Source: a virus (taxonomy: Duplodnaviria; Caudoviricetes). From it: a DNA stretch of 64,000 bases. Positions 1,100 through 13,012 of this stretch are shown here, one piece after another. A program made the translations under genes and the position numbers. The notes beneath the pieces were generated by a model. The model was not told where the DNA came from. It ran no database searches and saw nothing but the letters and a program-made list of their open reading frames with translations. Positions within the stretch are counted from its first letter, which is position 1; each line of letters starts with the position of its first letter. Location: the IMG/VR virus record IMGVR_UViG_3300023070_000001, positions 13,102 to 77,101 of that record; one strand, 5' to 3'.

Positions 1100-1100
1100 G

Positions 1101-1174: not shown

Positions 1175-1240
1175 AGGCTGGCAAGAAAAATACTTTTATT
1201 GTTACGTCTGCCATTCGCAACCGCTAGATGTTGCGCAGAG

Positions 1241-1314: not shown

Positions 1315-1318
1315 ATGT

Positions 1319-1362
1319 TGTAAGCGACTCTGTTTCCAGCTTTCGGGTGTCCGTCGCTTACA
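1319..1362 (-). ncRNA. Promoter-proximal stem-closed leader RNA L1
   Basis: TGTAAGCGAC...GTCGCTTACA closing stem with internal CTG-GAAA-CAG hairpin; ends 4 nt before tRNA-Glu(CUC). Confidence 0.6.
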
Positions 1363-1368
1363 AGTACT

Positions 1369-1397
1369 ACCTTACCTTAAAACTTTACCCCTGTCAA
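1369..1397 (-). promoter_or_regulatory. SigA/HrdB-type promoter P1
   Basis: TTGACA-N17-TAAGGT. Confidence 0.85.
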
Positions 1398-1399
1398 GC

Positions 1400-1888
1400 T
1401 CAGTAATCTGAAGAACTTGAACTAGATCCTGAATCTGAACTGCTTGAGCTAGATGATCCGCTATCTGAACTGTAGCTTGAAGAGTTACCTGAATCAGATG
1501 ATCCACTAGAGTAGTTAGATCCTGAATCAGAGCTGCTTGAAGAAGGTGCCTCATATGAGCTACTACGATCAGGCTCAGAGTAACCTGAATCAGAACCCCA
1601 GTAACCAAAGTCAGCAGGCTCAGATACGGCTACATAATCATCTGAGGGGGAGTCATCATACTTCTTACGAGGCTTCTCTACAACAGGCTTAGTACGGGTT
1701 ACAGGCTTGCGAGGCTCAGTAACGATATTACGGGAGGTATAAGCACTACCGGTATAGGTGTGAGGCTGTGAATACACAGATGCCTGCACCTTGTTAGGCT
1801 TACGACTCTTAGACTTAACTACCTTGTATACTACAAAGGCAATAATAGCAAGAGCTAGGATTACTAGAAGAAACTTCATGATTCTCAC
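1400..1888 (-). CDS. Membrane-anchored protein with Ser-rich low-complexity tail
   Basis: N-terminal hydrophobic helix followed by Lys residues; SSSSDSGS repeats at the C-terminus. Confidence 0.75.
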   Translation of the reverse strand: MRIMKFLLVILALAIIAFVVYKVVKSKSRKPNKVQASVYSQPHTYTGSAYTSRNIVTEPRKPVTRTKPVVEKPRKKYDDSPSDDYVAVSEPADFGYWGSDSGYSEPDRSSSYEAPSSSSSDSGSNYSSGSSDSGNSSSYSSDSGSSSSSSSDSGSSSSSSDY

Positions 1889-1920
1889 ATTCCGTGAAGG
1901 TTGTCTTACTTACTGACATT

Positions 1921-1949
1921 ATCCTAGCAGACTTGCTCTAGCGATGCAA
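1921..1949 (-). promoter_or_regulatory. SigA-type promoter
   Basis: TTGCAT-N17-TAGGAT with extended TG. Confidence 0.6.
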
Positions 1950-2270
1950 GCCTAGAGTTTCACGCTTCATCTCTTCAGTCATAATGCATTTAAGATCCTT
2001 GAATACCCAATTAGGTACCTTAACTCCATAGCAGACATCACCATCATAGTTAAGTGCCTCTACCCTGACCTTAATATGACCTTCAAGTAGGCCATCAGAA
2101 TCCTTGAAGGCGTGAAGAGCATAAAGCTTAGCCATCACAGTAGGAATCTCATCATAGTAGACTCTATACCATGAGCCTCTATTCTGCCAGATAGTACCTA
2201 AGCCATAAAAGTCAGTAAAGAATGCCAGCACTAAAGCAATTAGGGCTGTAATCCAAATCCAATCAGGCAC
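1938..2270 (-). CDS. Hypothetical membrane protein
   Basis: N-terminal TM (WIWITALIALVLAFF); GTG start overlapping the Nudix stop chosen. Confidence 0.65.
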   Translation of the reverse strand: MPDWIWITALIALVLAFFTDFYGLGTIWQNRGSWYRVYYDEIPTVMAKLYALHAFKDSDGLLEGHIKVRVEALNYDGDVCYGVKVPNWVFKDLKCIMTEEMKRETLGLHR

Positions 2271-2694
2271 AGTCGTAGAACCTACTTCCACCTGATGCTG
2301 CATTAAGAATGCGCTCTACAGTTGCAAAAATAGGCTTAGGTAGATTATAGATTGAATGCCACTTCCAGCTCTCTACCTTATCGGGCTCCATAACTTCAGG
2401 AACACCACCATCATAATAAGCTACCATACCAATATCGATATAGTGCTTGGGATAGTACTCGATGAGGTTGATTACTGAAACAACATGAAGACCACTGTAC
2501 TTTACACTAGAGCCAAGTTCCTCTTCAAGCTCACGCTCAGCACAAGCCTGGAAACTTTCATTAAATTCAAGGTGTCCCCCAGGAAGAGCCCACTGGCCTT
2601 CACCATGAGATCCCTTACGCTTACCCAGAAGAATACGATCCTCTCGGTCGATAAGTGCTACACCTACGCCAACCTTAGTAATGTTATCTGTCAT
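2263..2694 (-). CDS. Nudix hydrolase (MutT/NUDT15-like)
   Basis: Nudix box GGHLEFNESFQACAERELEEELG. Confidence 0.92.
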   Translation of the reverse strand: MTDNITKVGVGVALIDREDRILLGKRKGSHGEGQWALPGGHLEFNESFQACAERELEEELGSSVKYSGLHVVSVINLIEYYPKHYIDIGMVAYYDGGVPEVMEPDKVESWKWHSIYNLPKPIFATVERILNAASGGSRFYDCA

Positions 2695-2700
2695 GCTCTC

Positions 2701-2729
2701 ATCCTAGTAGAGTCACACAAGTCTGTCAA
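2701..2729 (-). promoter_or_regulatory. SigA-type promoter, leaderless Nudix mRNA
   Basis: TTGACA-N17-TAGGAT-N6-ATG. Confidence 0.85.
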
Positions 2730-2734
2730 GTAGA

Positions 2735-2760
2735 AAACCCACACCATCTGGTGTGGGTTT
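2735..2760. terminator. Intrinsic terminator hairpin
   Basis: AAACCCACACCA/TGGTGTGGGTTT 12-bp inverted repeat. Confidence 0.75.
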
Positions 2761-2765
2761 ATCAA

Positions 2766-2930
2766 TTATCCTTCGAACTTATATTTCTTGAAGGGTGAAT
2801 TTGAAGGCAACTTATCAAAAGCCTTGCGGGCCTTTTTTCTGTTATCTGTAGATGGCATACGAGCTGATGCCTCTGCTGCCCTTACAAATTCTTTCTCTTC
2901 TTTAGTTGTAGGCTCATGATCTGTTGGCAT
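2766..2930 (-). CDS. 54-aa basic microprotein (MPTDHEPTTKEEKEF...)
   Basis: Hand-translated; AGGAG RBS. Confidence 0.65.
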   Translation of the reverse strand: MPTDHEPTTKEEKEFVRAAEASARMPSTDNRKKARKAFDKLPSNSPFKKYKFEG

Positions 2931-2952
2931 TTAATTCTCCTAGAGTAATGGG

Positions 2953-3027
2953 TACCTGTAGTGGGACTCGAACCCACACTGAACGGATTTTAAGTCCGCA
3001 TCCTCTAACCGATTGGGATACACAGGC
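2953..3027 (-). tRNA. tRNA-Leu(UAA), short variable loop
   Basis: GCGGA-CT-TAA-AA-TCCGT; 5-nt variable region. Confidence 0.92.
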
Positions 3028-3058
3028 TTGATTGGCACTGTGTTAGCGCCAACGTTTA

Positions 3059-3214
3059 TCATAAAGTGAAATCGATGTGCCTTGTTTTACATTTGCAACT
3101 AGTGCAACCATTTTTGTCATGCTGACTACGCCCGTGGCCACAAGGCGGTGGACAGATTTTCTCTTTACGAGGGTAATCTAGTCTACCTTTGTCAGGCTTT
3201 TTAGGCTTAGTCAT
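3059..3214 (-). CDS. 51-aa Cys/His microprotein (CPPPCGHGRSQH...CTSCKC)
   Basis: Hand-translated; TAATG coupling with the upstream ORF. Confidence 0.65.
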   Translation of the reverse strand: MTKPKKPDKGRLDYPRKEKICPPPCGHGRSQHDKNGCTSCKCKTRHIDFTL

Positions 3215-3387
3215 TAGCTCTTGCCGCCTCTTAGATAATTTTCATACGCTGCAATAGCATTTTTTAAATTATCTCTAAGCTTCTTAGGGACAGGAACTCC
3301 ACGTTCCTTCTCTTCTTCTTTTGCTCTCATTAAAGCATCATTTGCTTTAACTACACTACGAGAATAAGCTTTTAACTTATCATCCAT
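3214..3387 (-). CDS. 57-aa helical microprotein, paralog of 3387-3536
   Basis: Hand-translated MDDKLKAYSRSVVKANDALMRAKEE...; TAATG coupling on both sides. Confidence 0.65.
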   Translation of the reverse strand: MDDKLKAYSRSVVKANDALMRAKEEEKERGVPVPKKLRDNLKNAIAAYENYLRGGKS

Positions 3388-3536
3388 TACGATTCATATT
3401 CCTTAATGGCATCTCTAAGTTCTTTAAGTACACTATCAGGTACTTGTTTCCCTTTCAGCCTTTTTTCTTTCCTAGCTTTTGCTACAGCAGCATCAGCGTC
3501 TTGCACTCTTTTCAGAGTATTAGCATTTTTGGGCAA
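3387..3536 (-). CDS. 49-aa helical microprotein
   Basis: TTG start after GAAAGA; MPKNANTLKRVQDADAAVAKARKE...AIKEYES. Confidence 0.6.
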   Translation of the reverse strand: MPKNANTLKRVQDADAAVAKARKEKRLKGKQVPDSVLKELRDAIKEYES

Positions 3537-3565
3537 AATAATTCTTTCTATTTTCAAAAATGATA

Positions 3566-3644
3566 TGGTTGAGGAACCGACGATCAGGCGTCAGACTTCT
3601 GTCCCGTAAGGGCAGTGTTCTGTCTACTCTTAAACTATTCCCCA
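3566..3644 (-). tRNA. Atypical tRNA-Val(UAC)-like gene lacking a canonical T-loop
   Basis: 7-bp acceptor TGGGGAA/TTCCTCA, A73, encoded CCA, anticodon loop CT-TAC-GG; T-arm loop GCCTGATC instead of TTCGA. Confidence 0.6.
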
Positions 3645-3646
3645 AG

Positions 3647-3721
3647 TACCGATGAAAGGATTCGAACCTTCAACATCCTGATTCTAAGTCAGGCACCTCT
3701 AGCCATTTGGGTCACATCGGC
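3647..3721 (-). tRNA. tRNA-Leu(UAG), short variable loop
   Basis: CCTGA-CT-TAG-AA-TCAGG. Confidence 0.92.
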
Positions 3722-3749
3722 ATAGCCCCGAAGGGCTTACTATTAATAA

Positions 3750-3947
3750 TTAAACTTCTTCTCTATCAACTTCGATAGTTACGTTAAGAACCTTGCCCTC
3801 ACGTACCCAAACTGGCTGCTCTCCCTGTCCACCAGCAGTGAACTTAAGGGTAGTATCGCCATCCTTAGCAGTGATTGCGCTCTGCCAATGGCCCTCATCA
3901 GCAGGCTTTGGCTTTACAGTAGCTACTGTAACATCTCGCATGAACAT
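3750..3947 (-). CDS. Hypothetical protein
   Basis: ORF track; plausible small beta protein. Confidence 0.6.
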   Translation of the reverse strand: MFMRDVTVATVKPKPADEGHWQSAITAKDGDTTLKFTAGGQGEQPVWVREGKVLNVTIEVDREEV

Positions 3948-3999
3948 TGTCTAGCTCCCATCGATATACCTGAATACGAACATCTAGTATATCGGCTGA

Positions 4000-4167
4000 C
4001 TAGCCATTCTTGTTGATAGCAGCAAGGACAGCTTTAGCATCTTGAAGTTCTTTCCTCAGAGCCTTTAGCTTCTTTGCATCTTTAGTAGTTAGCTTTTCAA
4101 CAGCGATCTTATTCATAATACGTTCAATAACACGTTCGGCATCAGTTCTAGTTGTAATCTTAGCCAA
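4000..4167 (-). CDS. 55-aa basic coiled-coil microprotein
   Basis: Start moved to TTG 4167 after AGGAG; the longer ORF overlaps a tRNA. Confidence 0.65.
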   Translation of the reverse strand: MAKITTRTDAERVIERIMNKIAVEKLTTKDAKKLKALRKELQDAKAVLAAINKNG

Positions 4168-4227
4168 TTGAATTACTCCTATGTCAGTTAAATACAGGGG
4201 TATGAGATGCGACCTCATACCCCTAAG

Positions 4228-4308
4228 TGCTCGTAACAGGAGTCGAACCTGCATACCTCTCGGCGTCACGTTCTAAGCGTGATGTGTATTCCGTTCCACC
4301 ATACGAGC
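4228..4308 (-). tRNA. tRNA-Leu(UAG), long variable arm
   Basis: TCACG-CT-TAG-AA-CGTGA; GCC-GAGA-GGT variable hairpin. Confidence 0.95.
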
Positions 4309-4315
4309 ATGAAAC

Positions 4316-4909
4316 CTATTTAAAATGATTCCTTACCTCTGCTACCTGAGTATTAAGATTTGCTACGGTAACAGTTAATTCTGATAGCTTAGCTACCGCC
4401 TTGTTCAACTCTACCAGACTAGCGGCCACCTTAGCAACCTCAGTAGATAACTTACTGATAGCTAAAAGATCCTCATCTACATAAGGCCAAGGGTGCTGTA
4501 CACCTAGTCTAGCATCTGGTAGGTACTGCTCGTAAGGGGCAACACCACTTGCGTTTTTGGTGAATACAGACCAAGAAGTGAAGGTACGCCCTGCACCCTT
4601 GAAGATTTCATATGCTGCGGCAGTATTTACTACAGGATCTCTCCATCTACCACCAGCAGCCTGAATCTTAGGATATTGCCAACGCCCTGAGAGCTGAAAG
4701 ATTCCATGATCTCTCTGCCCAATACTAGCAGGATCACTAGTAATAGGTGCAGTAGTACGAGAAATGGATTCTGTGTCTGCACTAGATTCGGCAAAAGCTA
4801 CCGCCACAGCAACAACAGCCTCGGTATCTGTTGTACCGGGTACAATTGTAGTTTTACTGAAGCCAGCCTTAATAACAAGGTCAGCAATTTCATGTGGTGA
4901 TAGCTTCAT
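4316..4909 (-). CDS. Lysozyme-like/lytic transglycosylase protein with C-terminal coiled coil
   Basis: AVAFAESS catalytic Glu, DHGIFQL and NTAAAYEI...WSVF motifs. Confidence 0.8.
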   Translation of the reverse strand: MKLSPHEIADLVIKAGFSKTTIVPGTTDTEAVVAVAVAFAESSADTESISRTTAPITSDPASIGQRDHGIFQLSGRWQYPKIQAAGGRWRDPVVNTAAAYEIFKGAGRTFTSWSVFTKNASGVAPYEQYLPDARLGVQHPWPYVDEDLLAISKLSTEVAKVAASLVELNKAVAKLSELTVTVANLNTQVAEVRNHFK

Positions 4910-4931
4910 AATTAGTCCTTAATTCAGAGAG

Positions 4932-5004
4932 CACCGGTTGCAAGAATCGAACTCGCACAGACGCGGGTTTGGAAGCCGCCGCACTACCATTATACTAAAC
5001 CGGC
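4932..5004 (-). tRNA. tRNA-Trp(CCA)
   Basis: Loop TT-CCA-AA, G73; C31.C39 mismatch. Confidence 0.85.
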
Positions 5005-5258
5005 ATTAATTCGGAGATTCAATAAGGAGGGTTGCGATCCCTCATATCATACTTACTTGCACTCCTAGGTTTGGTCAAGCCGCGCAAAGGACTTACGCTA
5101 GTCTCATCTGAACCCTAACAGATGACTCTGTCAAAATCAACAGACACCAAGTGTTCCAGGGGAAGCTCATGCTTCTCGTATACCCGCTCGCCTCGACGAG
5201 ACCCCTTGGATTACTATGATTCTAGTAGCTTGCATCAGAGGCTATCTAAAATCTTACG

Positions 5259-5330
5259 TGGCGGATACCTGAGTCGAACAGGTGATTTCAAGCTCATGAC
5301 GCTTGCGAGATACCACTTCTCCAATCCGCT
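5259..5330 (-). tRNA. tRNA-Met(CAU) with 1:72 mismatch
   Basis: CAAGC-GT-CAT-GA-GCTTG; A1.C72 unpaired. Confidence 0.85.
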
Positions 5331-5332
5331 AG

Positions 5333-5403
5333 TACCGAGTGATGGTAACGATCCATCTTCTATGCCTTATGAGAGCATCGTTCTACCTTTAAACTAACCC
5401 GGC
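5333..5403 (-). tRNA. tRNA-Met/Ile2(CAU) with atypical T-loop
   Basis: ATGCT-CT-CAT-AA-GGCAT; T-arm GATGG-ATCGTTA-CCATC. Confidence 0.8.
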
Positions 5404-5414
5404 CTGCTCCTACC

Positions 5415-5443
5415 AGCTTAGCAGAGCAGTTAAACCTTGTCAA
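5415..5443 (-). promoter_or_regulatory. SigA-type promoter for the CAU tRNA pair
   Basis: TTGACA-N17-TAAGCT. Confidence 0.85.
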
Positions 5444-5593
5444 CTACTTTGCCTTGTAGAATCCGCTGTTAGGATCTGAAATATGAGATTTATGAATCCA
5501 CTTACCACTTGCAATTCTTACAAGTTTATTAAGTGGTGTGGGTTTATGTCCACATGCTGCACAGTTAGCAGGTGCCTTCTTATCCGTCTTCAT
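5444..5593 (-). CDS. 49-aa Zn-binding microprotein (CAACGH...HKSH)
   Basis: Hand-translated; ATGA overlap with the upstream ORF. Confidence 0.6.
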   Translation of the reverse strand: MKTDKKAPANCAACGHKPTPLNKLVRIASGKWIHKSHISDPNSGFYKAK

Positions 5594-5787
5594 ACCAGCA
5601 AGTCTACAACAGGCTTATTGGTTGAGTCAAGCTTAGGCATTCCACCATACTGATCAGGATCAACGCCTGTCATTAATGCTATAGCAGATTCACTACTCCC
5701 GTCAAGGCGCTCAAGATGAACTTGTACCATGGAGTAGTAAGGTCCACAATAATCAGATAGACTCTCGCTTGAGTCGCTTTCTATCAT
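5590..5787 (-). CDS. Hypothetical protein (start uncertain)
   Basis: ORF track. Confidence 0.45.
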   Translation of the reverse strand: MIESDSSESLSDYCGPYYSMVQVHLERLDGSSESAIALMTGVDPDQYGGMPKLDSTNKPVVDLLV

Positions 5788-5902
5788 ACTTCTTCCTATT
5801 CTTATGCTTAGAAGATGCGTTAGAGCGGCGAAGTTCTAGGAGCTGACGTAGTTCCTCAGCATCCATCTTGCGCTTATAAGTTTGCATGTCAGCTCCCTTC
5901 AT
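5753..5902 (-). CDS. 49-aa basic microprotein (LRRSNASSKHKNRKKYDRK)
   Basis: Hand-translated; leaderless ATG 6 nt after the -10; alternative ATG at 5887 with SD. Confidence 0.7.
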   Translation of the reverse strand: MKGADMQTYKRKMDAEELRQLLELRRSNASSKHKNRKKYDRKRLKRESI

Positions 5903-5908
5903 GACTTC

Positions 5909-5937
5909 AATCTATCAGAGTAGGTCTGAGGTGTCAA
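5909..5937 (-). promoter_or_regulatory. SigA-type promoter (leaderless)
   Basis: TTGACA-N17-TAGATT-N6-ATG. Confidence 0.85.
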
Positions 5938-6122
5938 GCGTCGTAGTAATTATCGTTTCTAATATTTACATCGACTACAGAAATCAACTCTTGAGCACGA
6001 ACCTTAAAGCCCTCTAGCTCTGATCTCTTATACAGGCTGGCATTTTCAGTAATGTCTTTAATAACAAAGATTAGCTCGCTCATTAATTGAGCTACATAAG
6101 GTGTTGTGGATTCACTCATCAT
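5934..6122 (-). CDS. Hypothetical protein
   Basis: ORF track; coupled to neighbours. Confidence 0.6.
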   Translation of the reverse strand: MMSESTTPYVAQLMSELIFVIKDITENASLYKRSELEGFKVRAQELISVVDVNIRNDNYYDA

Positions 6123-6324
6123 CCTGCCATTCTACTACGGTCTTACCGCCATGACCGTGAATAATAATTACATCAGCAATACTTTTATAGAAACAGACAG
6201 AACTGGTAGATGTCATCCACCTCATAGCGCAGGAACCATCAGTAAACTGAACACCTTCAGTTACTATACCTACTCCTGAGATTCCTGTCTCATCATCTAA
6301 TCTACGGAGGTTGAATCTACGCAA
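6112..6324 (-). CDS. Small phage hypothetical protein (R.D.TG.SG.G...EGV.F.DG)
   Basis: RBS GAGGA; pattern recalled from widespread small phage proteins. Confidence 0.7.
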   Translation of the reverse strand: MRRFNLRRLDDETGISGVGIVTEGVQFTDGSCAMRWMTSTSSVCFYKSIADVIIIHGHGGKTVVEWQDDE

Positions 6325-6449
6325 GGTTCCTCTTCTTTCTTAGTATATTTATTAAACAGTTCTTGAAGCTCTTCATAAAGTTTCTGAACTTTATCCTTAT
6401 CTTCATCAGATAAGTTATCCCAATCTAGTACACCATCATCATTAGGCAT
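6297..6449 (-). CDS. 50-aa acidic microprotein (MPNDDGVLDWDNLSDEDK...)
   Basis: Hand-translated; fills the gap between two ORFs. Confidence 0.5.
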   Translation of the reverse strand: MPNDDGVLDWDNLSDEDKDKVQKLYEELQELFNKYTKKEEEPCVDSTSVD

Positions 6450-6717
6450 TTCTTGCCCTCATAACTACAATAAGCCATTCATCAGGATTATCCTGCTGTA
6501 GAAATACTAATTCCTCTACTGACAGATCCCTGGCTTCGAAATCATAATTAGCAGCTTCAGCCATACGCATAACCATCTCAGTACAATCTGATGTAATAAC
6601 TGCTTTAACTACTGCTACATCATCACTGAGGCAAGCCCAGATTTCACCACAAGCAAATCCCCTTGCAAATTCTGGGTCCTCAGAGTCAAATACCAAGAGG
6701 AATTCCTCAGAATCCAT
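6442..6717 (-). CDS. Hypothetical protein
   Basis: Start moved to ATG 6717. Confidence 0.6.
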   Translation of the reverse strand: MDSEEFLLVFDSEDPEFARGFACGEIWACLSDDVAVVKAVITSDCTEMVMRMAEAANYDFEARDLSVEELVFLQQDNPDEWLIVVMRARNA

Positions 6718-6736
6718 ACTCTTTTTGATTCCTCTA

Positions 6737-7063: not shown

Positions 7064-7064
7064 T

Positions 7065-8003
7065 CTACTTAACCTCTTGGTGACATAGTGGGCATTGCCC
7101 TGCATTAGTTAATAGTTTGTGTAGTTCGGTTTCGATATCTGATATGGCATGATCTAGAGTATTTATTTGATCGACTAACTCTTGAATCTTCTTTGTAGCT
7201 AGGATAGCAGACTTTAGGGCAGCTTTAAAGCCTCTGAGTTGATCCTGCACCTCTACTAGCTCAGACATACTAGGAGGCTCTGGAATTATTCTAACCTTGC
7301 TGAGGGCATCTGAGGCTTGTTGTGCCCTATCTACAGAGCTAGCTAGGTTGAGTTGCCAAGCATTGATATCTGAAAGTTCCTCCCAGATATCCTCTACCTC
7401 AGTCATCGTGCTAGCCTGAGCTTTAATATCTGTATATTCAACAATCTGCTTCATTACTGCTTCCTGGTCCTTCTTACGCAGGTTCAGTAATGTAGATGCT
7501 GCCTTTGCTTTCTTACTAGCTTTACTAACTGCTGCAAAGATAGTAGAGACATTTGTCAATTCCCCTAGAATCCTTGCAGCATTGCTAGATGTCTCAGTCA
7601 ATAGATAAGGTGCATCATGTTGACTAGCGAAACTTATCGACTTTACTTCTTTTGTGCTCGGCGGGATACCAAGAACTTCTGTAACTTGGGAAGGTACTTG
7701 ACGATTAAGCTTAGTAAAGCTGGATTCTTTGCTACCAATCTCAGTAATCTTGTAAACACTAGATCCTCCTACGCTTCTTTCAATAGTTACTGTAGCATTA
7801 TCTGTGGTAACCGCTACAGATGCATGTTTAGTTCCTTGCATTATATTATCGGAGTTCAATGAATTACTAGCGATGGCCTCGATAGCTCTGATTAAAGCTG
7901 ACTTTCCACTACTAGATGCACCGACAATTACAGTAAACTTTCCCAGTTCAATTTCTACATCTTGTAGACTCTGGAAATTCTTACATGATATAGAGTGAAT
8001 CAC
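7065..8003 (-). CDS. SbcC/Rad50-like ATPase N-terminal half (Walker A, coiled coil, terminal zinc hook)
   Basis: NFQSL, IVGASSSGKSALIRA, coiled coil, CPLC at the C-terminus. Confidence 0.85.
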   Translation of the reverse strand: MIHSISCKNFQSLQDVEIELGKFTVIVGASSSGKSALIRAIEAIASNSLNSDNIMQGTKHASVAVTTDNATVTIERSVGGSSVYKITEIGSKESSFTKLNRQVPSQVTEVLGIPPSTKEVKSISFASQHDAPYLLTETSSNAARILGELTNVSTIFAAVSKASKKAKAASTLLNLRKKDQEAVMKQIVEYTDIKAQASTMTEVEDIWEELSDINAWQLNLASSVDRAQQASDALSKVRIIPEPPSMSELVEVQDQLRGFKAALKSAILATKKIQELVDQINTLDHAISDIETELHKLLTNAGQCPLCHQEVK

Positions 8004-8020
8004 TAATCCTCCATACGCTA

Positions 8021-8054
8021 AGAGCCACCGAACCCTGTTCAGGCTGGTGGCTCT
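8021..8054 (-). terminator. Hairpin/terminator
   Basis: AGAGCCACC/GGTGGCTCT inverted repeat. Confidence 0.6.
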
Positions 8055-8063
8055 AGTATAGCA

Positions 8064-8246
8064 TCATTTTGCTATGATGTAACCCTTGCCCTCGCAAGGT
8101 CCACAATCTACAGCAACAAATTTATCAGAAGACTTAATAAACTTAACGTCTTTAAGTTTAGCCCTTGGAACTAAAATCTTTCCATCTTTACATGCTAAGC
8201 ACGTAACTCTGGAACCCTTTAAGGGTTTAGGATACTTACTACTCAT
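8064..8246 (-). CDS. DnaJ-type Zn-finger microprotein
   Basis: CLACKDG...CGPCEGKG. Confidence 0.7.
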   Translation of the reverse strand: MSSKYPKPLKGSRVTCLACKDGKILVPRAKLKDVKFIKSSDKFVAVDCGPCEGKGYIIAK

Positions 8247-8254
8247 TTAATTCC

Positions 8255-8551
8255 TCAGACTACGAAGTATCGTTTACCCTTACAGCCCTTGCAAGTATCT
8301 TTAACTGCAAGTTCACCTGTCTTCTTGTTAGCAGGTCTGACAAGAACAATACCCTTACCTTTACAGCCAGCACAAGTGATTTTATCACCCTTTTTAACTG
8401 TAGGGTATTTATCTTTCTTAACTCGCTGAACTGCATTTGCAGTGTTTACGCCAGGACGCTTGACCCTAGCAATAATATCATAGCAATCCTTACATCGTAG
8501 ATTATCTTGCGCATCTACAAACATGTTAAGGCCGTGCTTTTTACACTCCAT
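8255..8551 (-). CDS. Two-module Zn-finger protein (CxxH...CxxC plus DnaJ-type)
   Basis: CKKHG...CKDC; CAGCKGKG...CKGCKGK. Confidence 0.7.
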   Translation of the reverse strand: MECKKHGLNMFVDAQDNLRCKDCYDIIARVKRPGVNTANAVQRVKKDKYPTVKKGDKITCAGCKGKGIVLVRPANKKTGELAVKDTCKGCKGKRYFVV

Positions 8552-8669
8552 TATTTTTAGGTTTTCCCTTAATATGATTTGGAGTTAGGGCTCTACCACA
8601 GTGATAACATCGAGTAATACCCTTAGTAATAATTATTCTTTCGCCATGTTGTTCACATTTTTTAGGCAC
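8541..8669 (-). CDS. 42-aa Zn-finger microprotein (CEQHG...CYHC)
   Basis: GTG 1 nt after the tRNA-Arg(UCU) discriminator; similar to the N-terminus of the next gene. Confidence 0.6.
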   Translation of the reverse strand: MPKKCEQHGERIIITKGITRCYHCGRALTPNHIKGKPKNNGV

Positions 8670-8670
8670 G

Positions 8671-8743
8671 TGCCCCAGGAGGGATTCGAACCCCCAACCT
8701 GACGGGTAGAAACCGCCTGCTCTATCCATTGAGCTACTGAGGC
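8671..8743 (-). tRNA. tRNA-Arg(UCU)
   Basis: GGCGG-TT-TCT-AC-CCGTC. Confidence 0.93.
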
Positions 8744-8891
8744 ATTAGTTAACAGGGTGCCAGCCCTGCTTTTACCATTACGGTCCCCAAGGTCTCCCGA
8801 CCCTGAATAACGAATGCTGGCACATAAGTTTTTGGCCAACCGTACTTGCTAGTTCCATACATACGGGAAGTATACTAGCACCCCACCTGCG

Positions 8892-8967
8892 TGATCCATG
8901 TAGGATTTGAACCTACGCACTTCGGATTAAAAGTCCGCTGCTCTATACCAGACTGAGCTAATGGATC
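8892..8967 (-). tRNA. tRNA-Lys(UUU)
   Basis: GCGGA-CT-TTT-AA-TCCGA. Confidence 0.95.
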
Positions 8968-9038
8968 ATTAAATGAAATTGTTGGGAAAGGCTATGCCCT
9001 TTATTCCAAGGGGATGTCTATGCCCATACAATTTCAAG

Positions 9039-9113
9039 TGGTTCATCTCGGATTCGAACCGAGGATCTTCGGATTAAGAGGCCGCTGCTTTAGCCAGGCT
9101 AAGCTAATGAACC
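9039..9113 (-). tRNA. tRNA-Lys(CUU), mismatched anticodon stem
   Basis: GCGGC-CT-CTT-AA-TCCGA (C31.U39, G27.A43). Confidence 0.9.
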
Positions 9114-9181
9114 ATACATGATTTATCCATCACCAACTTAGGGTGGCACCCGCTTTATAATGGATTCGTTCACAGACGAGG

Positions 9182-9258
9182 TGGTGGATCGAGTGGGATT
9201 CGAACCCACGACCAATGGATTAAGAGTCCACTGCTCTATACCGCTGAGCTACCGATCC
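9182..9258 (-). tRNA. tRNA-Lys(CUU), CCA encoded
   Basis: GTGGA-CT-CTT-AA-TCCAT. Confidence 0.96.
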
Positions 9259-9274
9259 ATAATTGCCTTTCAAG

Positions 9275-9345
9275 TACCCGGTGACAGAATCGAACTGCCG
9301 TCTGCACGGTGTAAACGTGCGGCCCTCCCATTAGACGAACCGGGC
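9275..9345 (-). tRNA. tRNA-Val(UAC)
   Basis: GCACG-TT-TAC-AC-CGTGC; A73. Confidence 0.9.
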
Positions 9346-9346
9346 T

Positions 9347-9709
9347 TGGTGCCGTGGAAATTTTCAGATCAGCAAGAGCTTAAGTTAACTGACCCTATAT
9401 TCTAGACCGCATTATCGTTACCCACAGCTATAACAATCTAGAAGCTTAGCATAAATCGTAACACGGACTCCCACCGTTAGTCTAGCACACTTTCCCAGAT
9501 CCAAGATTTATGTATGTTAGAGTACATCTAGCACATTAGCATTTAATTAGCGCCCACATGGACAAGTAACTTACTGTGTACTCTAAATCTGTAAGAGTAA
9601 AGTGAAAGGAATTGAACCTTTCCAGCGGGTGCCCCCAATTTGGCTTAGCCTTAGTACCATACCTAAGCAGGAATCGAACCTGTTACTGCCATTTACTTCA
9701 CTCTTTACG
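9347..9709 (-). ncRNA. ~360-nt structured non-coding insert between tRNA-Ala and tRNA-Val (tRNA-like modules)
   Basis: No minus-strand ORF of note; two TTC(G/A)ATT T-arm hairpins, several long stems, 3' CCACGGC-A-CCA. Confidence 0.55.
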
Positions 9710-9782
9710 TGGAACCGGACGGATTCGAACCGTCATCCTCCTGATTGCAAAACAGGCGCTCTACCGTTGGAGCTACGATCCC
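9710..9782 (-). tRNA. tRNA-Ala(UGC)
   Basis: G3.U70; loop TT-TGC-AA; U31.U39. Confidence 0.95.
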
Positions 9783-9786
9783 ATAA

Positions 9787-9844
9787 TGTAAGTGGGCCGT
9801 CACCGCCAGGTGTCTGAGCTATGTACTCAGGAACATCACTTACA
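9787..9844 (-). ncRNA. Promoter-proximal stem-closed leader RNA L2
   Basis: TGTAAGTG...CACTTACA; internal CTGAG/CTCAG and CACC/GGTG hairpins; ends 4 nt before tRNA-Ala. Confidence 0.6.
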
Positions 9845-9850
9845 TCTACT

Positions 9851-9879
9851 ACCTTACACCATGTCTTACAGGCTGTCAA
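9851..9879 (-). promoter_or_regulatory. SigA-type promoter P2
   Basis: TTGACA-N17-TAAGGT. Confidence 0.85.
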
Positions 9880-9887
9880 GTACTTAT

Positions 9888-10097
9888 TTAGTCCTCGTCA
9901 GCCATGTTGTCATCCCAGCACTTACTGTCAACACCCGTAATCAGAAGTTCACGAGTATCAGCGGATAGCCCAGGAAAGGCAACCTGCACAAACTCACCTG
10001 ATTTCCACTTGTTAAAGCCATCCTCAGGTAGGTCGATCTTCTTCGACTTACCACAGAACATACACTTCTTAGTGGTGTAGCTTACTGTCTTGGTCAT
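9888..10097 (-). CDS. Hypothetical Zn-binding protein (leaderless)
   Basis: CMFCG; ATG 6 nt after the -10. Confidence 0.7.
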   Translation of the reverse strand: MTKTVSYTTKKCMFCGKSKKIDLPEDGFNKWKSGEFVQVAFPGLSADTRELLITGVDSKCWDDNMADED

Positions 10098-10103
10098 GTA
10101 AGT

Positions 10104-10132
10104 AGCTTATCCTACTCTGTCAGATTCGTCAA
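10104..10132 (-). promoter_or_regulatory. SigA-type promoter (leaderless)
   Basis: TTGACG-N17-TAAGCT-N6-ATG. Confidence 0.8.
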
Positions 10133-10135
10133 GTA

Positions 10136-10255
10136 CTACAGGAGAGTACAGAAACCATCTTTACTCTTGTGACCAGGGCAACCTTGTGCCTTGCATCGAT
10201 ACTTGCCCTTGCGGTGTGCTCCACCCTTGGGCTCTTCCCTCTTATCTTTTGCCAT
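10136..10255 (-). CDS. 39-aa Cys/His microprotein (CKAQGCPGH...FC)
   Basis: Hand-translated. Confidence 0.5.
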   Translation of the reverse strand: MAKDKREEPKGGAHRKGKYRCKAQGCPGHKSKDGFCTLL

Positions 10256-10264
10256 GAGATGAGC

Positions 10265-10888
10265 TTACTCTACTGTGGAGCCTTCGTCAACGGGGTAGAC
10301 ATCATAAATCTTGAAGTTCTCATGAACCTTGCTAGCGGTAGGGCCGCTCTGGTTTTGGTAGTGCGAGCCAGCAAATCTAGATCCATAAAGAATAGTAGAT
10401 GGCTGAGGTAGCTTGAAAAAGCATAACTGAGCAATCTTCATTCCAGGATACAATAGGATTGGTGTAGTACCGTTATTAGATAATTCTAGTGTAACAGTTC
10501 CCTCAAACCCTGGATCGATAAAGCCAGCAGTCGAGTGAATTTGTAAACCTAATCTACCTAAACTTGACTTACCTTCACACCTTGCAGTTATATTAGCTCC
10601 TAAAGCAATAGCCTCATGAGTTGAAGCGAGAATAAAGCTATCAGGCTTTATCTCAATAGCTGAACCCTTGGGTACGGTAACAGCTTGGAAATGATTAGAG
10701 CTATCTACTTTAGGATCTATTACATCATTGAAGGCTAGGTAATCAGGGTGAGTACGCCTCTGTACTAAAAATTCGCAGCTCAGAGTTACATCATAACTAG
10801 ATGGCTGCATTAATTCAGGATGGAAGGGCTCTATGACAATATTGTCAAATCGCTTCTCTTCTAAGATATCTCTATTAGATAATAGCAC
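10265..10888 (-). CDS. dcd: dCTP deaminase
   Basis: QPSSYDVTL, EGKSSLGRLGLQIHSTAGFIDPGFEG, TLELSN. Confidence 0.95.
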   Translation of the reverse strand: MLLSNRDILEEKRFDNIVIEPFHPELMQPSSYDVTLSCEFLVQRRTHPDYLAFNDVIDPKVDSSNHFQAVTVPKGSAIEIKPDSFILASTHEAIALGANITARCEGKSSLGRLGLQIHSTAGFIDPGFEGTVTLELSNNGTTPILLYPGMKIAQLCFFKLPQPSTILYGSRFAGSHYQNQSGPTASKVHENFKIYDVYPVDEGSTVE

Positions 10889-10979
10889 TCATGTCTCCCC
10901 ATGAAAATAGAGACCTCATCGACAGGCACCATAAAAGGTCTCGGCTAAATACAGCACCCTAGAGCTTGGTCTCTATTTT

Positions 10980-11354
10980 CTATTTAGTATGGCCTGCTTG
11001 AATCATAAGTGTAGCAATATCTTGACCATCTGGCAAGGTTACTGACGCTAATGTTCTTCCCATAGTAAATCCATACGACACAAGAGAAACAATTGTCCCT
11101 TGAGGAATTATTGCTTTCAAGTATGAAGTAGCTAATTTAGAGCGGGCCTTATCCTTAGTCTCAGGAGCGTCATACCACCCGCCATCAGGTAATGTAATTC
11201 TGATAGAGCAGTGACCTGGCTCACCTTCATCTATAGGATAGATCCTAACACCCCAGCCTAAATCTAAATATTCCATAGTGAATGTATCACCATCATGAAC
11301 AGATTTTACTGGACCTACAGCTACACGGACTCGTGTCTTGCGTATTTCTGACAT
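10980..11354 (-). CDS. SNase/thermonuclease-like nuclease
   Basis: VHDGDTF, DAPET, GRTLA motifs; start moved to ATG 11354 after GGGAG. Confidence 0.8.
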   Translation of the reverse strand: MSEIRKTRVRVAVGPVKSVHDGDTFTMEYLDLGWGVRIYPIDEGEPGHCSIRITLPDGGWYDAPETKDKARSKLATSYLKAIIPQGTIVSLVSYGFTMGRTLASVTLPDGQDIATLMIQAGHTK

Positions 11355-11494
11355 AAAAATACTCCCATCTATGTGATAGGAGTATCGGTTAAATATAGTA
11401 GGCAGTCCTGAGAGCATAGCACTCTACCAATCGGGTTTCCTCTACACTTCTGTAAGGGCTTCAGACTTTTCTCTAGTGCTAGACCTACTATAAG

Positions 11495-11574
11495 AGCCCA
11501 TAAGCGGAATCGAACCGCAGACAATTAGACTCGTTTTGCAGACGAGCAGCAGCCACCAGCTACTTTTTATAGGC
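11495..11574 (-). tRNA. tRNA-Cys(GCA), atypical (A8, expanded variable loop)
   Basis: CTCGT-CT-GCA-AA-ACGAG; U73. Confidence 0.85.
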
Positions 11575-11705
11575 ATTAAAATAAGGCTCCCCCGCTAACG
11601 GCTGAGCGACGGAAACTTTCAAGGCATTAGCTTATCCGAATTCAGCATATCCTTGACCGCTAGGTTCCCTTATTTAAGATTTACCCTTATCTTGTAATCA
11701 TAAAG

Positions 11706-11780
11706 AGCCGTCAGTGTGGCTCGAACACACTACTCATCGCATACCAAGCGAGGGCTTTAACCTGATTAAGCTACGACGGC
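11706..11780 (-). tRNA. tRNA-Thr(GGU)
   Basis: Loop TT-GGT-AT; acceptor GCCGTCG/TGACGGC; U73. Confidence 0.9.
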
Positions 11781-11973
11781 AAAACCTAAGGATATCTATT
11801 TGTGTATTTGATATCAATCTGTTAAATAAAACCTACAGAATAACTTAGGTAGTTGTTGCAAAGATTATGGTCTCTGTCCTTAGCAGCTTTGTCAGAGACT
11901 TGCTGGGGATCGCTATAGCATACATAAGCCCTTCCCCTCCAGCGACATTATCCGGTCTGCATAATCTATTGCG

Positions 11974-12044
11974 AGCGGATAGCCGGGTTCGAACCGGCGA
12001 GAAATGATTGGAAATCACTTATGTTACCACTACATCATATCCGC
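11974..12044 (-). tRNA. tRNA-Gly(UCC)
   Basis: AGTGA-TT-TCC-AA-TCATT; U73. Confidence 0.93.
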
Positions 12045-12116
12045 ATAAACGGTTTTTCAGCGGCGTACTAGACGTGGTGGGACTTGCTCCGCTGAGCTGC
12101 AACCGAAAATCTCCCG

Positions 12117-12187
12117 AGCGACATAGGGGAATCGAACCCCTGTATACTGCATGGCAAGCAGTCGCACTACCATTGTGCTAATATCGC
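12117..12187 (-). tRNA. tRNA-Gly(GCC)
   Basis: ACTGC-TT-GCC-AT-GCAGT; U73. Confidence 0.95.
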
Positions 12188-12192
12188 ATCTT

Positions 12193-12378
12193 TCAATCTA
12201 GCAAAGTGCTAGAGCTTAAAAACATCCAAGCTTTAAATTCATTGCTTGTCATATTGTCTTCATCATGACGACGCTTCAATTCTAAAGCTGAGATACCCAT
12301 TCTGTCAAGCATATCTTTTACCAGAGAATCCCACTCGTCTTGAGTTAACTCAACTACATTAATAGGTTCATTACTCAT
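12193..12378 (-). CDS. Hypothetical protein
   Basis: ORF track; ATGA coupling. Confidence 0.65.
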   Translation of the reverse strand: MSNEPINVVELTQDEWDSLVKDMLDRMGISALELKRRHDEDNMTSNEFKAWMFLSSSTLLD

Positions 12379-12509
12379 ACTGTCCCCATATTTACCTTGC
12401 CTTTATTACACTTAGCATGGCACTTAAGTTCTTTCCATTTTCCAGGTTTTATTTCTTTTTGAATCACACCATAACCTTTACAGGTCTGGCACATTATCCA
12501 CTTGGCCAT
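12375..12509 (-). CDS. 44-aa DnaJ-type Zn-finger microprotein (CQTCKGYG...CHAKCNKG)
   Basis: ATG 1 nt after the tRNA-Asp discriminator; the longer ORF-track start overlaps the tRNA. Confidence 0.65.
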   Translation of the reverse strand: MAKWIMCQTCKGYGVIQKEIKPGKWKELKCHAKCNKGKVNMGTV

Positions 12510-12510
12510 G

Positions 12511-12583
12511 CGCTCCCGAGGGGAAGTCGAACCCCCACCTGTTGATTGACAATCAACTATGCTAACCTTTACACCACGAAAGC
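12511..12583 (-). tRNA. tRNA-Asp(GUC)
   Basis: GTTGA-TT-GTC-AA-TCAAC; G73. Confidence 0.95.
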
Positions 12584-12687
12584 TTGACTGGACCGATAGC
12601 TCTTCAGCATGTTTTGATTCTGCTAGATTGGAGCCTAGCATACTCTCCACAAATATAACACCTGCTCGGTCCTACACAGGCTTAATG

Positions 12688-12760
12688 TATCCACAAAGGG
12701 ATTTGAACCCCCGACCTCTTCGTTCGTAGCGAAGCGCTCTATCCACTGAGCTATGCGGAC
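12688..12760 (-). tRNA. tRNA-Arg(ACG)
   Basis: CTTCG-CT-ACG-AA-CGAAG. Confidence 0.95.
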
Positions 12761-12764
12761 TTGA

Positions 12765-12830
12765 TGTAAGCGATCCGGTAGTCTGCTCATTCGCGGCTTT
12801 CCGTCTTAAGGGCTTCTAACCTCGCTTACA
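12765..12830 (-). ncRNA. Promoter-proximal stem-closed leader RNA L3
   Basis: TGTAAGCGA...TCGCTTACA; ends 4 nt before tRNA-Arg(ACG). Confidence 0.6.
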
Positions 12831-12836
12831 AGTACT

Positions 12837-12865
12837 ACCTTACCTCATCGGTAAGTCTTTGTCAA
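12837..12865 (-). promoter_or_regulatory. SigA-type promoter P3
   Basis: TTGACA-N17-TAAGGT. Confidence 0.85.
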
Positions 12866-12871
12866 GTGGCT

Positions 12872-12977
12872 TATTAGCGAGATCGAGTAACCCCTGCCAC
12901 TATATGCAGAATACGGGTCCTCAGCGCACCTCGTTCCTCACAAGGTCGCCACACCTTGCTTCACTACCTCGCTAACA
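12872..12977 (-). ncRNA. Promoter-proximal stem-closed RNA L4
   Basis: TGTTAGCGAG...CTCGCTAATA; internal CAAGGT/ACCTTG and CTGC/GCAG hairpins. Confidence 0.6.
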
Positions 12978-12983
12978 AATACT

Positions 12984-13012
12984 ACCTTACATCAACTCTA
13001 GCAGAGTGTCAA
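12984..13012 (-). promoter_or_regulatory. SigA-type promoter P4
   Basis: TTGACA-N17-TAAGGT. Confidence 0.85.

What the first reader, a model, noticed from the sequence alone, without database searches (positions are those of the whole stretch)
1319..13012. Family of four promoter-launched RNAs sharing a covarying closing stem, three docked exactly 4 nt before a tRNA
Seen: four promoters read TTGACA-N17-TAAGGT-AGTANN (1369-1397, 9851-9879, 12837-12865, 12984-13012). Each is followed at the predicted +1 by UGUWAGYG and closed by CRCUWAYA (L1 1319-1362, L2 9787-9844, L3 12765-12830, L4 12872-12977). The stem covaries (C-G to U-A in L2, A-U to U-A in L4), while the interiors are unrelated hairpin sets. 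L1-L3 end exactly 4 nt before tRNA-Glu, -Ala and -Arg. Inference: a conserved scaffold carrying variable cargo. It could be a put-like antitermination leader, a 5'-end protection or processing signal, or an sRNA family released by RNase P with a 4-nt 3' overhang. I recognise no named family.
Basis: partly seen in the sequence, partly recalled or inferred. Interest (0 to 1): 0.85.

Follow-up and report, generated by a model that had tools for sequence, protein, structure and literature searches.

The report
Stem-closed leader RNAs of phage tRNAs
A large, uncultured soil phage starts three of its tRNA operons with small folded RNAs whose first bases pair with the bases just before the tRNA; related phages keep this helix while swapping what lies inside it, so it looks like a built-in way to make stable small RNAs alongside tRNAs.

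Summary
Four exact TTGACA-N17-TAAGGTAGTA promoters are each followed, 6 nt after the -10 box, by UGUWAGYG, which pairs with CRCUWAYA. L1, L2 and L3 end 4 nt before tRNA-Glu(ctc), tRNA-Ala(tgc) and tRNA-Arg(acg).

The family is real. About 22 distinct units occur in related uncultured ~105-135 kb phages, at the same three tRNA slots, in genomes sharing only 36-64% protein identity. The outer 6-7 bp never vary, inner pairs covary, and spacing to the tRNA is 3-6 nt in 18 of 19 units (mode 4). Interiors are replaced wholesale between 99%-identical genomes, and one unit is a bare 21-nt hairpin.

Two comparisons bear on function:
- The L2 interior is an independently conserved, covarying three-way-junction RNA found in unrelated GC-rich phages inside different closing stems.
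- Streptomyces BE-cluster phages hold a Y-RNA paralogue in the same promoter-to-tRNA slot.

Best reading (about 0.5): a platform for expressing small RNAs. The promoter sets the 5' end, RNase P sets the 3' end, and the helix protects both. Function is otherwise unknown.

L1-L4 are not Y RNAs (no CGAA motif), not put-like, not attenuators, and match nothing in Rfam. No expression data could be obtained.

The parts
12980..13012 (-). Promoter P4: TTGACA-N17-TAAGGT plus AGTA
   Evidence: Exact pattern match; conserved in relative G001.
12872..12977 (-). L4, 106-nt stem-closed RNA (UGUUAGCGAGGU.../...AUCUCGCUAAUA). It is followed by P3, not by a tRNA.
   Evidence: 12-bp closing stem in the minimum-energy fold, z -3.7; 100% identical in G001.
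12833..12865 (-). Promoter P3
   Evidence: Exact pattern match.
12765..12830 (-). L3, 66-nt stem-closed leader
   Evidence: Fold. In G001 the interior is replaced (42 nt, unrelated) inside near-identical flanks, with a G-C to A-U double change at pair 8.
12761..12764 (-). 4-nt single-stranded spacer UCAA before the predicted RNase P site
   Evidence: Sequence; tRNA start from ARAGORN.
12687..12760 (-). tRNA-Arg(acg), first tRNA of the operon
   Evidence: ARAGORN; Rfam tRNA 65.2 bits.
9847..9879 (-). Promoter P2
   Evidence: Exact pattern match.
9787..9844 (-). L2, 58-nt stem-closed leader; pair 7 is U-A
   Evidence: Fold. Homologue L150 has C-G at pair 7. Matches model R1 at 67.7 bits.
9795..9836 (-). 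L2 cargo: a conserved three-way-junction module. P2 is CCUGAG/CUCAG, P3 is CACC-UGGC-GGUG, and the junction reads ACGGCC.
   Evidence: Found with different closing stems in 7 GC-rich phage contigs. 89.9% of cells paired, 9 pairs with double changes, 0 of 500 shuffles as good.
9783..9786 (-). 4-nt spacer UUAU
9709..9782 (-). tRNA-Ala(tgc)
1365..1397 (-). Promoter P1
   Evidence: Exact pattern match.
1319..1362 (-). L1, 44-nt stem-closed leader
   Evidence: Fold z -4.2. Near-identical copy in L147; interior replaced in L148 inside identical flanks.
1315..1318 (-). 4-nt spacer ACAU
1240..1314 (-). tRNA-Glu(ctc)
5411..5443 (-). Contrast case: the tRNA-Met promoter (TTGACA-N17-TAAGCT). It has a leader of only about 5 nt and no hairpin.
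   Evidence: Shows that a stem-closed leader is not needed to express a tRNA.
10098..10132 (-). Reference promoter driving a leaderless ORF, with ATG as the 7th nt after the -10 box. Used to place the transcription start.

Best explanation
L1-L4 are members of an unnamed family of self-closing leader RNAs that act as a small-RNA expression platform fused to phage tRNA operons.

Proposed sequence of events:
1. A host sigma-A-type promoter (TTGACA-17-TAAGGT) starts transcription at the first or second base of UGUAAGCG.
2. After a variable interior is transcribed, the complementary CGCUUACA closes an 8-12 bp helix that leaves only 3-6 nt before the first tRNA.
3. RNase P cuts at the tRNA 5' end. 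This would release a 21-145 nt RNA whose triphosphate 5' end is base-paired and whose 3' tail is too short for 3' exonucleases to grip.

The helix is therefore the conserved handle. It protects both ends and, given its invariant outer 6-7 bp, is probably also recognised by a protein. The interior is an exchangeable cargo RNA.

Shown: the anatomy, the conservation, the covariation, the cargo exchange, and the independent conservation of one cargo.

Inferred: the start site, the RNase P release, the stability and any partner protein.
For: 1. Four exact promoter-plus-stem units against a chance expectation below 1.
2. About 22 distinct units in relatives, at the same Arg(acg), Ala(tgc) and Glu(ctc) slots. 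The genomes share 64% (G003, G004) and 36% (G002) median protein identity with the window phage.
3. On 15 units, 92% of stem cells pair, against 31-44% in slid registers. Six pairs are invariant and 4 pairs show double changes. Shuffling partners at positions 7-10 gives P<=0.001.
4. The stem always starts 6 nt after the -10 box. In the same genomes ATG sits at exactly that place in leaderless ORFs: 5 of 18 promoter-like sites in this phage, and one TAAGGTAGTG promoter in G003.
5. Cargo is replaced inside near-identical flanks at the L3 slot (G001, 99% protein identity) and at the L1 slot (L148).
6. The L2 cargo is a covarying three-way-junction RNA present in 7 unrelated GC-rich phage contigs with different closing stems. 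Three of these sit 3-4 nt before a tRNA-Met.
7. Streptomyces BE phages carry a Y-RNA-like leader with the GNCGAAN0-1G motif in the same slot, 3-4 nt before tRNA-Gly(tcc) (motif from PMC4201824).
8. The tRNA-Met promoter has no hairpin leader, so the leader is not needed for tRNA expression.
9. Other promoters of the same class have unrelated first transcribed bases, so promoter function does not explain the stem sequence.
10. From established knowledge: 5'-terminal stem-loops block 5'-end-dependent RNases, and short 3' tails resist PNPase and RNase II.
Against: - No RNA data.
- A TATAAT-based scan does not call these promoters.
- A 21-nt unit with no cargo exists (G004, L144). The helix may therefore act by itself in cis.
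- Other leaders in relatives close with unrelated stems (G002 Asn, G003 Ile, G004 Ile). Closure as such may be the selected trait.
- L4 has no tRNA after it, so RNase P cannot define its 3' end.
- The invariance of the 5' arm is partly forced by the search pattern (TGTWAG), although units found without it agree.
- The L1, L3 and L4 cargoes have no homologues outside near-identical phages, so their function is not shown.
Confidence: 0.5

Rival explanations
1. Cis-only leader clamp. The helix exists only to serve the tRNA operon. It keeps the leader from mispairing with the tRNA or its trailer, presents a short single-stranded -1 to -4 segment to RNase P, and keeps Rho or 5' nucleases off the untranslated transcript. 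The released leader is waste, and the interiors are neutral filler.
For: - A cargo-free 21-nt hairpin unit exists.
- Leaders with unrelated closing stems occur before other tRNAs in relatives.
- Some inter-tRNA spacers in the window also close on themselves next to the following tRNA (Lys-ttt, Arg-tct, Leu-taa, Cys).
- The L1, L3 and L4 interiors are not conserved outside close kin.
Against: - Structure-only roles do not explain an invariant 6-7 bp sequence across 36-64% protein identity.
- The tRNA-Met operon does without any such leader.
- The L2 interior is under clear purifying selection and conserved in unrelated phages.
- The same slot holds a Y RNA, a known trans-acting RNA class, in BE phages.
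Confidence: 0.3
2. Transcription-control element acting on RNA polymerase near the promoter. This could be put-like or boxA/boxB-like antitermination. It could also be a sigma-dependent pause, caused by the -10-like TAAGCG at +3 to +8.
For: - The position directly after strong promoters.
- The 5' arm contains TAAG, the start of this phage's -10 boxes.
- Tandem P4-L4-P3-L3 resembles rRNA-type tandem promoters.
Against: - put RNAs need a conserved two-hairpin body. Here interiors are unrelated or absent.
- boxA must be single-stranded, whereas CGCUUACA is paired.
- TAAGCG and TAAGUG lack the final T that sigma region 2 needs (established knowledge).
- There are no terminator-like sites on the minus strand between these promoters and their tRNAs for an antiterminator to act on.
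Confidence: 0.08
3. DNA-level element. The inverted repeat TGTAAGCG/CGCTTACA would be a pair of protein-binding or recombination sites (operator, cassette-exchange or homing site) rather than an RNA helix.
For: - Cargo is replaced cleanly between the repeats in near-identical genomes.
- HNH endonuclease genes lie in the tRNA region.
Against: - Changes in the two arms are compensatory, as expected for pairing and not for two copies of one binding site.
- The arm distance varies from 5 to about 130 nt.
- The arms are not enriched elsewhere in the genomes.
- The swapped interiors are not inversions of each other (sequences).
- Homologous recombination through the conserved promoter and tRNA flanks explains the swaps without special sites.
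Confidence: 0.05

Closest known systems
Bacterial and phage Y RNAs (YrlA/Yrl, Rfam RF02553; Ro60/Rsr partners)
   Same: - Several paralogous small RNAs per genome share a helix made from the 5' and 3' ends and have variable interiors.
- They are linked to tRNA biology; M. smegmatis YrlA is cut by RNase P (PMC4201824).
- Relatives of this phage (G002-G004) encode Ro60 and Y RNAs.
- In Streptomyces BE phages a Y-RNA paralogue fills exactly this promoter-to-tRNA slot.
   Different: - L1-L4 lack the GNCGAAN0-1G/CGAA Ro-contact motif and the bulged helix.
- No TROVE gene is found in the 77-kb record or at the syntenic place between the two tRNA-Glu genes.
- No Rfam Y-RNA or YrlA hit.
5'-terminal stabiliser stem-loops (for example the E. 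coli ompA 5' UTR hairpin; Bacillus and phage SP82 5' stabilisers). From my own knowledge.
   Same: A helix that begins at or within 1-2 nt of the transcript's 5' end, the geometry known to block RppH, RNase E and RNase J entry.
   Different: Those elements protect a downstream mRNA. Here RNase P should sever the helix from everything downstream, so the protected product is the leader itself. Here the 3' arm also lies next to a processing site.
Stable small RNAs co-transcribed with tRNAs in the phage T4 tRNA cluster (species 1 and 2, bands C and D). From my own knowledge.
   Same: Phage small RNAs of unknown function made from tRNA-operon precursors by the host tRNA-processing enzymes.
   Different: T4 has two unique RNAs inside the cluster. 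It does not have a repeated promoter-proximal family with a shared helix and exchangeable interiors.
ncRNA maturation coupled to a tRNA or tRNA-like element (MALAT1-mascRNA cut by RNase P; MHV68 tRNA-miRNA units). From my own knowledge.
   Same: A tRNA-shaped element supplies the end-forming cleavage for a neighbouring non-coding RNA.
   Different: Those systems are eukaryotic or from animal viruses. The tRNA-like part there is a decoy, whereas here it is a working tRNA gene.
HK022 put RNAs and rRNA-operon boxB-boxA leaders
   Same: Structured RNA transcribed directly after strong promoters.
   Different: Those elements have conserved bodies or single-stranded boxes and act on downstream terminators. 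None of these features is seen here.

Membership tests
Y RNA / YrlA (Ro60-binding RNAs) | Helix formed by the 5' and 3' ends of the RNA | tested here: met
   Closing stems of 8-12 bp in all four RNAs; covariation in relatives.
Y RNA / YrlA (Ro60-binding RNAs) | GNCGAAN0-1G (CGAA) Ro-contact motif near the 5' strand (PMC4201824, PMC12135203) | tested here: not met
   None of L1-L4 has it; by eye only one relative unit (L146) does (sequences). A motif scan after promoters found it only in G002-G004. All 8 BE-phage leaders have it.
Y RNA / YrlA (Ro60-binding RNAs) | Encoded within about 4 kb of a Ro60 (TROVE) gene, on the same strand | tested here: not met
   No TROVE match in the 77-kb record, which is 57% complete. 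In G003 and G004 the TROVE gene lies between the two tRNA-Glu genes; these are adjacent in the window. A copy in the unsequenced part cannot be excluded.
Y RNA / YrlA (Ro60-binding RNAs) | Match to the Rfam Y_RNA, YrlA or sbRNA models | tested here: not met
   No hit at E<=1 over 16 kb, nor at E<=10 on the leaders alone. The models do respond to the relatives' Y RNAs.
Y RNA / YrlA (Ro60-binding RNAs) | Binds Ro60/Rsr | not testable with these tools
   Needs a gel-shift assay or immunoprecipitation.
HK022 put antitermination RNA | Conserved two-stem-loop body that acts on RNA polymerase to read through downstream terminators | tested here: not met
   Interiors are unrelated between copies and absent in the 21-nt unit. 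No terminator-like site lies between promoter and tRNA on the minus strand.
5'-terminal stabiliser stem-loop | Helix starting within 0-2 nt of the transcript's 5' end | tested here: inconclusive
   The stem starts at the 7th nt after the -10 box, where leaderless ORFs of the same promoter type start. No mapped transcription start.
Leader-peptide or terminator attenuator of tRNA operons | Short ORF plus alternative hairpins ending in an intrinsic terminator | tested here: not met
   No U-tract after the stems and no terminator call there. By eye, no start codon with a ribosome-binding site in L1-L4.
RNase III processing stalk (rRNA-type) | Duplex of about 20 bp formed by the sequences flanking the product | tested here: not met
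   The helices are 8-12 bp, below the usual RNase III substrate length (established knowledge).

The most novel reading that the evidence does not exclude
The UGUAAGC/GCUUACA helix is the binding handle of a so far unknown RNA-protein system of large actinophage-like viruses. It would run parallel to Ro60-Y RNA. The phage loads exchangeable effector RNAs, such as the three-way-junction module of L2, onto one handle. It makes them in bulk with its tRNAs, and RNase P acts as the 3'-end maker. Rapid cargo exchange would then reflect an arms race with the host.
Probability: 0.2. Interest if true: 0.85.

Novelty: new variant of a known kind. Interest (0 to 1): 0.66.

Why it matters
Phage tRNA clusters are usually read as codon-supply or anti-defence kits. 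The DNA between the tRNA genes is ignored.

Here the first element of three tRNA operons is a conserved, covarying RNA with a fixed helix and exchangeable interior. The same slot holds a Y RNA in cultured Streptomyces phages. This points to a general way for phages to make defined, end-protected small RNAs with no terminator and no dedicated nuclease.

It adds two unnamed RNA families to test: the L helix family and the L2 three-way-junction module. The cultured BE-cluster phages on Streptomyces offer a route to test the slot principle by experiment.

Tried and rejected
- **Rfam.** Searched over 16 kb and on each leader region. Only tRNAs and noise were found.
- **Cultured phages.** Megablast and blastn found only tRNA similarity to Streptomyces BE phages. 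L2 and L4 had no homologues.
- **Loose promoter pattern in IMG/VR.** It gave more than 118 mostly unrelated hits. It was useful only after filtering.
- **Bacterial genomes.** A scan of 185,579 species found one hit, in a Ruminococcus MAG, about the few expected by chance. The element is therefore not borrowed from host tRNA operons.
- **Y-RNA membership.** Rejected on motif, on the missing Ro60 neighbour and on the Rfam models (see Membership tests).
- **TROVE.** Absent from this record and from G001.
- **Promoter-function explanation of the stem sequence.** Rejected, because other promoters of the same class start with unrelated bases.
- **Closure as a universal spacer rule.** Only some spacers show it.
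- **Inversion of the cargo between the repeats.** Rejected by comparing the swapped interiors with each other's reverse complement.
- **First pair count on alignment A5.** It used wrong columns and was redone.
- **RNAalifold on the L2 module.** It put P1 out of register for the three L-type rows and chose GGC/GCC instead of P3. The hand-set structure was tested.
- **Model R1.** It found no further copies in G002-G004 or in Wofford.
- **Earlier-scan look-ups.** Look-ups by sequence found nothing.

Full report
**1. What is in the window**

All parts of the finding lie on the minus strand. TTGACA-N17-TAAGGTAGTA occurs exactly four times: 1365-1397, 9847-9879, 12833-12865 and 12980-13012. One weaker relative (2 mismatches) lies before tRNA-Met at 5411-5443. 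Shuffled sequence gives 0.88 sites even with three mismatches allowed.

Six bases after each -10 box the sequence reads UGUWAGYG, and a complementary CRCUWAYA follows 44-106 nt later. In the whole 77.1-kb record such arm pairs occur only at these four places.

Each RNA folds with this closing helix in its minimum-energy structure. The z-scores are -4.2, -2.0, -2.5 and -3.7.

L1, L2 and L3 end exactly 4 nt before tRNA-Glu(ctc), tRNA-Ala(tgc) and tRNA-Arg(acg). L4 is followed by promoter P3. A P4 transcript would therefore carry L4 and L3 in tandem, and in that transcript the L4 5' arm can also pair with the L3 3' arm.

Rfam finds nothing but tRNAs.

**2. Genome and host**

The record is a 77-kb fragment, about 57% complete, of a tRNA-rich phage (26 tRNAs, 43% G+C).

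- Its promoters have the form TTGACR-17-TANNNT.
- Five of 18 such sites in this genome put an ATG exactly at the 7th base after the -10 box, opening ORFs of 39-143 aa. That is the signature of leaderless mRNAs, which are common in actinobacteria.
- The only DNA similarity to cultured phages is between its tRNAs and those of Streptomyces BE-cluster phages.

An E. coli-type scan does not call the four promoters, because TAAGGT matches TATAAT at 3 of 6 positions. The promoter assignment therefore rests on the perfect -35 box, the spacing, the TANNNT form and conservation.

The leaderless ORFs place the transcription start at the first base of the L helix, or at the G next to it. This is an inference, not a measurement.

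**3. The family in relatives**

Pattern scans of IMG/VR and JGI metagenomes and pattern-free scans of four related genomes give about 22 distinct units.

| Genome | Median protein identity to the window phage |
|---|---|
| G001 | 99% |
| G003, G004 | 64% |
| G002 (complete, 132 kb) | 36% |

- **Slots.** The units sit at the same three slots, before tRNA-Arg(acg), tRNA-Ala(tgc) and tRNA-Glu(ctc).
- **Outer pairs.** The outer six pairs UGUAAG/CUUACA are invariant in 15 aligned units.
- **Inner pairs.** Pairs 7-10 show C-G/U-A/G-C and G-C/A-U/C-G exchanges.
- **Pairing.** 92% of cells pair, against 31-44% in slid registers. Shuffling partners gives P<=0.001 for positions 7-10.
- **Search bias.** The 5'-arm invariance is partly imposed by the search pattern. 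The units found without it agree: G003 Arg, G004 Arg, Ala and Glu, and a UGUCAGUAAGC variant in G003.
- **Spacing.** The gap to the tRNA is 3-6 nt in 18 of 19 cases, most often 4.
- **Not from bacteria.** A scan of 185,579 bacterial and archaeal genomes found one hit, in a Ruminococcus MAG, about the few expected by chance. The element therefore belongs to the phages and is not copied from host tRNA operons.

**4. The interior is exchangeable**

- G001 is 99% identical in its proteins. L4 is identical there, but the L3 interior is replaced by an unrelated 26-nt sequence. The flanks remain about 97% identical, and the stem carries a G-C to A-U double change.
- At the L1 slot, contig L148 has identical flanks and the same tRNA but a different interior. 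L147 keeps L1 and has a different tRNA-Glu behind it.
- G004, and contig L144, have a unit that is only the helix plus a 5-nt loop, 21 nt in all.

The helix, not the cargo, is therefore the constant part.

**5. At least one cargo is a functional RNA in its own right**

The interior of L2 recurs in seven GC-rich (58-68%) phage contigs with unrelated closing stems: GGCUCCC/GGGAGCC, GGCGGC/GCCGCC, GUGGGC/GCCCAC, GAUGGC/GCCAUC and GGCAGGCC/GGCCUGCC.

It is a three-way junction:
- P2 is CCUGNNN/NNNCAG.
- P3 is CACC-UGGC-GGUG, changing to CACA-UGGC-UGUG.
- The junction bases ACGGCC are invariant.

Across these copies 89.9% of cells pair, nine pairs show double changes, and 0 of 500 shuffles do as well.

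In three contigs it sits 3-4 nt before the only tRNA (Met). In two others it lies in or next to tRNA genes. It is not in Rfam. In L2 the L helix simply takes the place of its P1.

**6. The same slot in cultured phages holds a Y RNA**

In Streptomyces phage Wofford and seven other distinct BE-cluster sequences, a TTGACA-N17-TAAAGTAGTA promoter launches an 88-94 nt RNA that ends 3-4 nt before tRNA-Gly(tcc).

- It reads UGUGGGUCGAA.G...CUUAUCCACA.
- It carries the GNCGAAN0-1G motif that defines bacterial Y RNAs (motif from PMC4201824).
- Its 5' half is about 85% identical to a second RNA next to the phage's Ro-like gene. That second RNA scores 37.1 bits on a nematode stem-bulge (Y-type) RNA model.

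G002-G004 also encode Ro60, and G002 has three tandem Y RNAs.

The window's L RNAs lack the motif. The Ro60 gene that lies between the two tRNA-Glu genes in G003 and G004 is missing here. L1-L4 are therefore not Y RNAs, but they use the same production slot.

**7. Mechanism**

Most likely (about 0.5) this is a tRNA-coupled platform for making small RNAs:
1. The promoter fixes the 5' end.
2. RNase P fixes the 3' end.
3. The closing helix leaves no free 5' end and only about 4 nt of 3' tail. By established knowledge of RppH, RNase E, RNase J, PNPase and RNase II, this should make the product long-lived.

The invariant outer 6-7 bp are not explained by pairing alone. They are also not explained by promoter needs, because other promoters of the same class start with unrelated bases. 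A sequence-specific partner is therefore likely, but it is unknown.

Rivals:
- **Cis-only clamp (0.3).** It is favoured by the cargo-free unit, by leaders that close with other stems and by some self-closing spacers. It does not explain the sequence invariance, the hairpin-free tRNA-Met operon or the conserved L2 cargo.
- **put-like or pause control (0.08) and DNA-level sites (0.05).** These fit poorly; see Rival explanations.

**8. Limits**

- There are no expression data.
- The units come from a few lineages, so the shuffle statistics overstate independence.
- The phage genome is incomplete.
- The L1, L3 and L4 cargoes have no homologues outside near-identical phages.

**9. Verdict**

The antitermination option is not supported.

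Noticed in passing
L127:14503-14626 (Streptomyces phage Wofford NC_048722.1, 72502-72625) and L127:23291-23363: In BE-cluster Streptomyces phages the leader of tRNA-Gly(tcc) is a Y-RNA paralogue with the GNCGAAN0-1G motif. It is launched by a consensus promoter and ends 3-4 nt before the tRNA. A second copy lies beside the Ro-like gene. I found no paper describing this.
   Followed up: partly
window 9795-9836 (-); L181:85-143, L182:6987-7045, L183:5888-5946, L191:2118-2176, L203:171-229, L208:6378-6436, L209:3334-3392: An unnamed three-way-junction RNA module of about 55 nt with strong covariation and invariant junction bases (ACGGCC). It is shared by phages of 43-68% G+C, often next to tRNA genes. 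Model R1 was built from it.
   Followed up: partly
G004 reverse strand about 52.9 kb (L176:11900-12050) and L153 about 5030-5115 (-): After the L unit at the Arg slot comes a tRNA-Arg(ACG)-like RNA (GGGCGUAUACCCUC...). It seems to lack a D arm, has a long extra arm, and is not called by ARAGORN.
   Followed up: no
window 10098-10132, 10256-10290 (-) and three more in the record: Five of 18 promoter-like sites drive ORFs whose ATG is the 7th base after the -10 box. These are leaderless mRNAs and point to an actinobacterial host.
   Followed up: partly
L162:2030-2700 (G002 22.0-22.7 kb): Three tandem Y-RNA-like units (GAGCCGAAG, GAGCCGAAG, GAGUCGAAUG) lie before the TROVE gene of a complete 132-kb phage. 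The third has a T-arm and a weak YrlA hit.
   Followed up: partly
window 1100-1314 versus G003/G004: In G003 and G004 about 3-4 kb holding the Ro60 gene lie between tRNA-Glu(ctc) and tRNA-Glu(ttc). In the window the two tRNAs are 65 nt apart, so the Ro60 cassette is absent here.
   Followed up: partly
window 8744-8890, 8968-9037, 3028-3060, 11575-11704 (-): Some inter-tRNA spacers (before Arg-tct, Lys-ttt, Leu-taa, Cys) are also closed by 9-14 bp stems ending 3-7 nt before the next tRNA. Their sequences are unrelated to the L helix.
   Followed up: partly
A similar sequence follows the Ala slot in G003 (L132).
   Followed up: no
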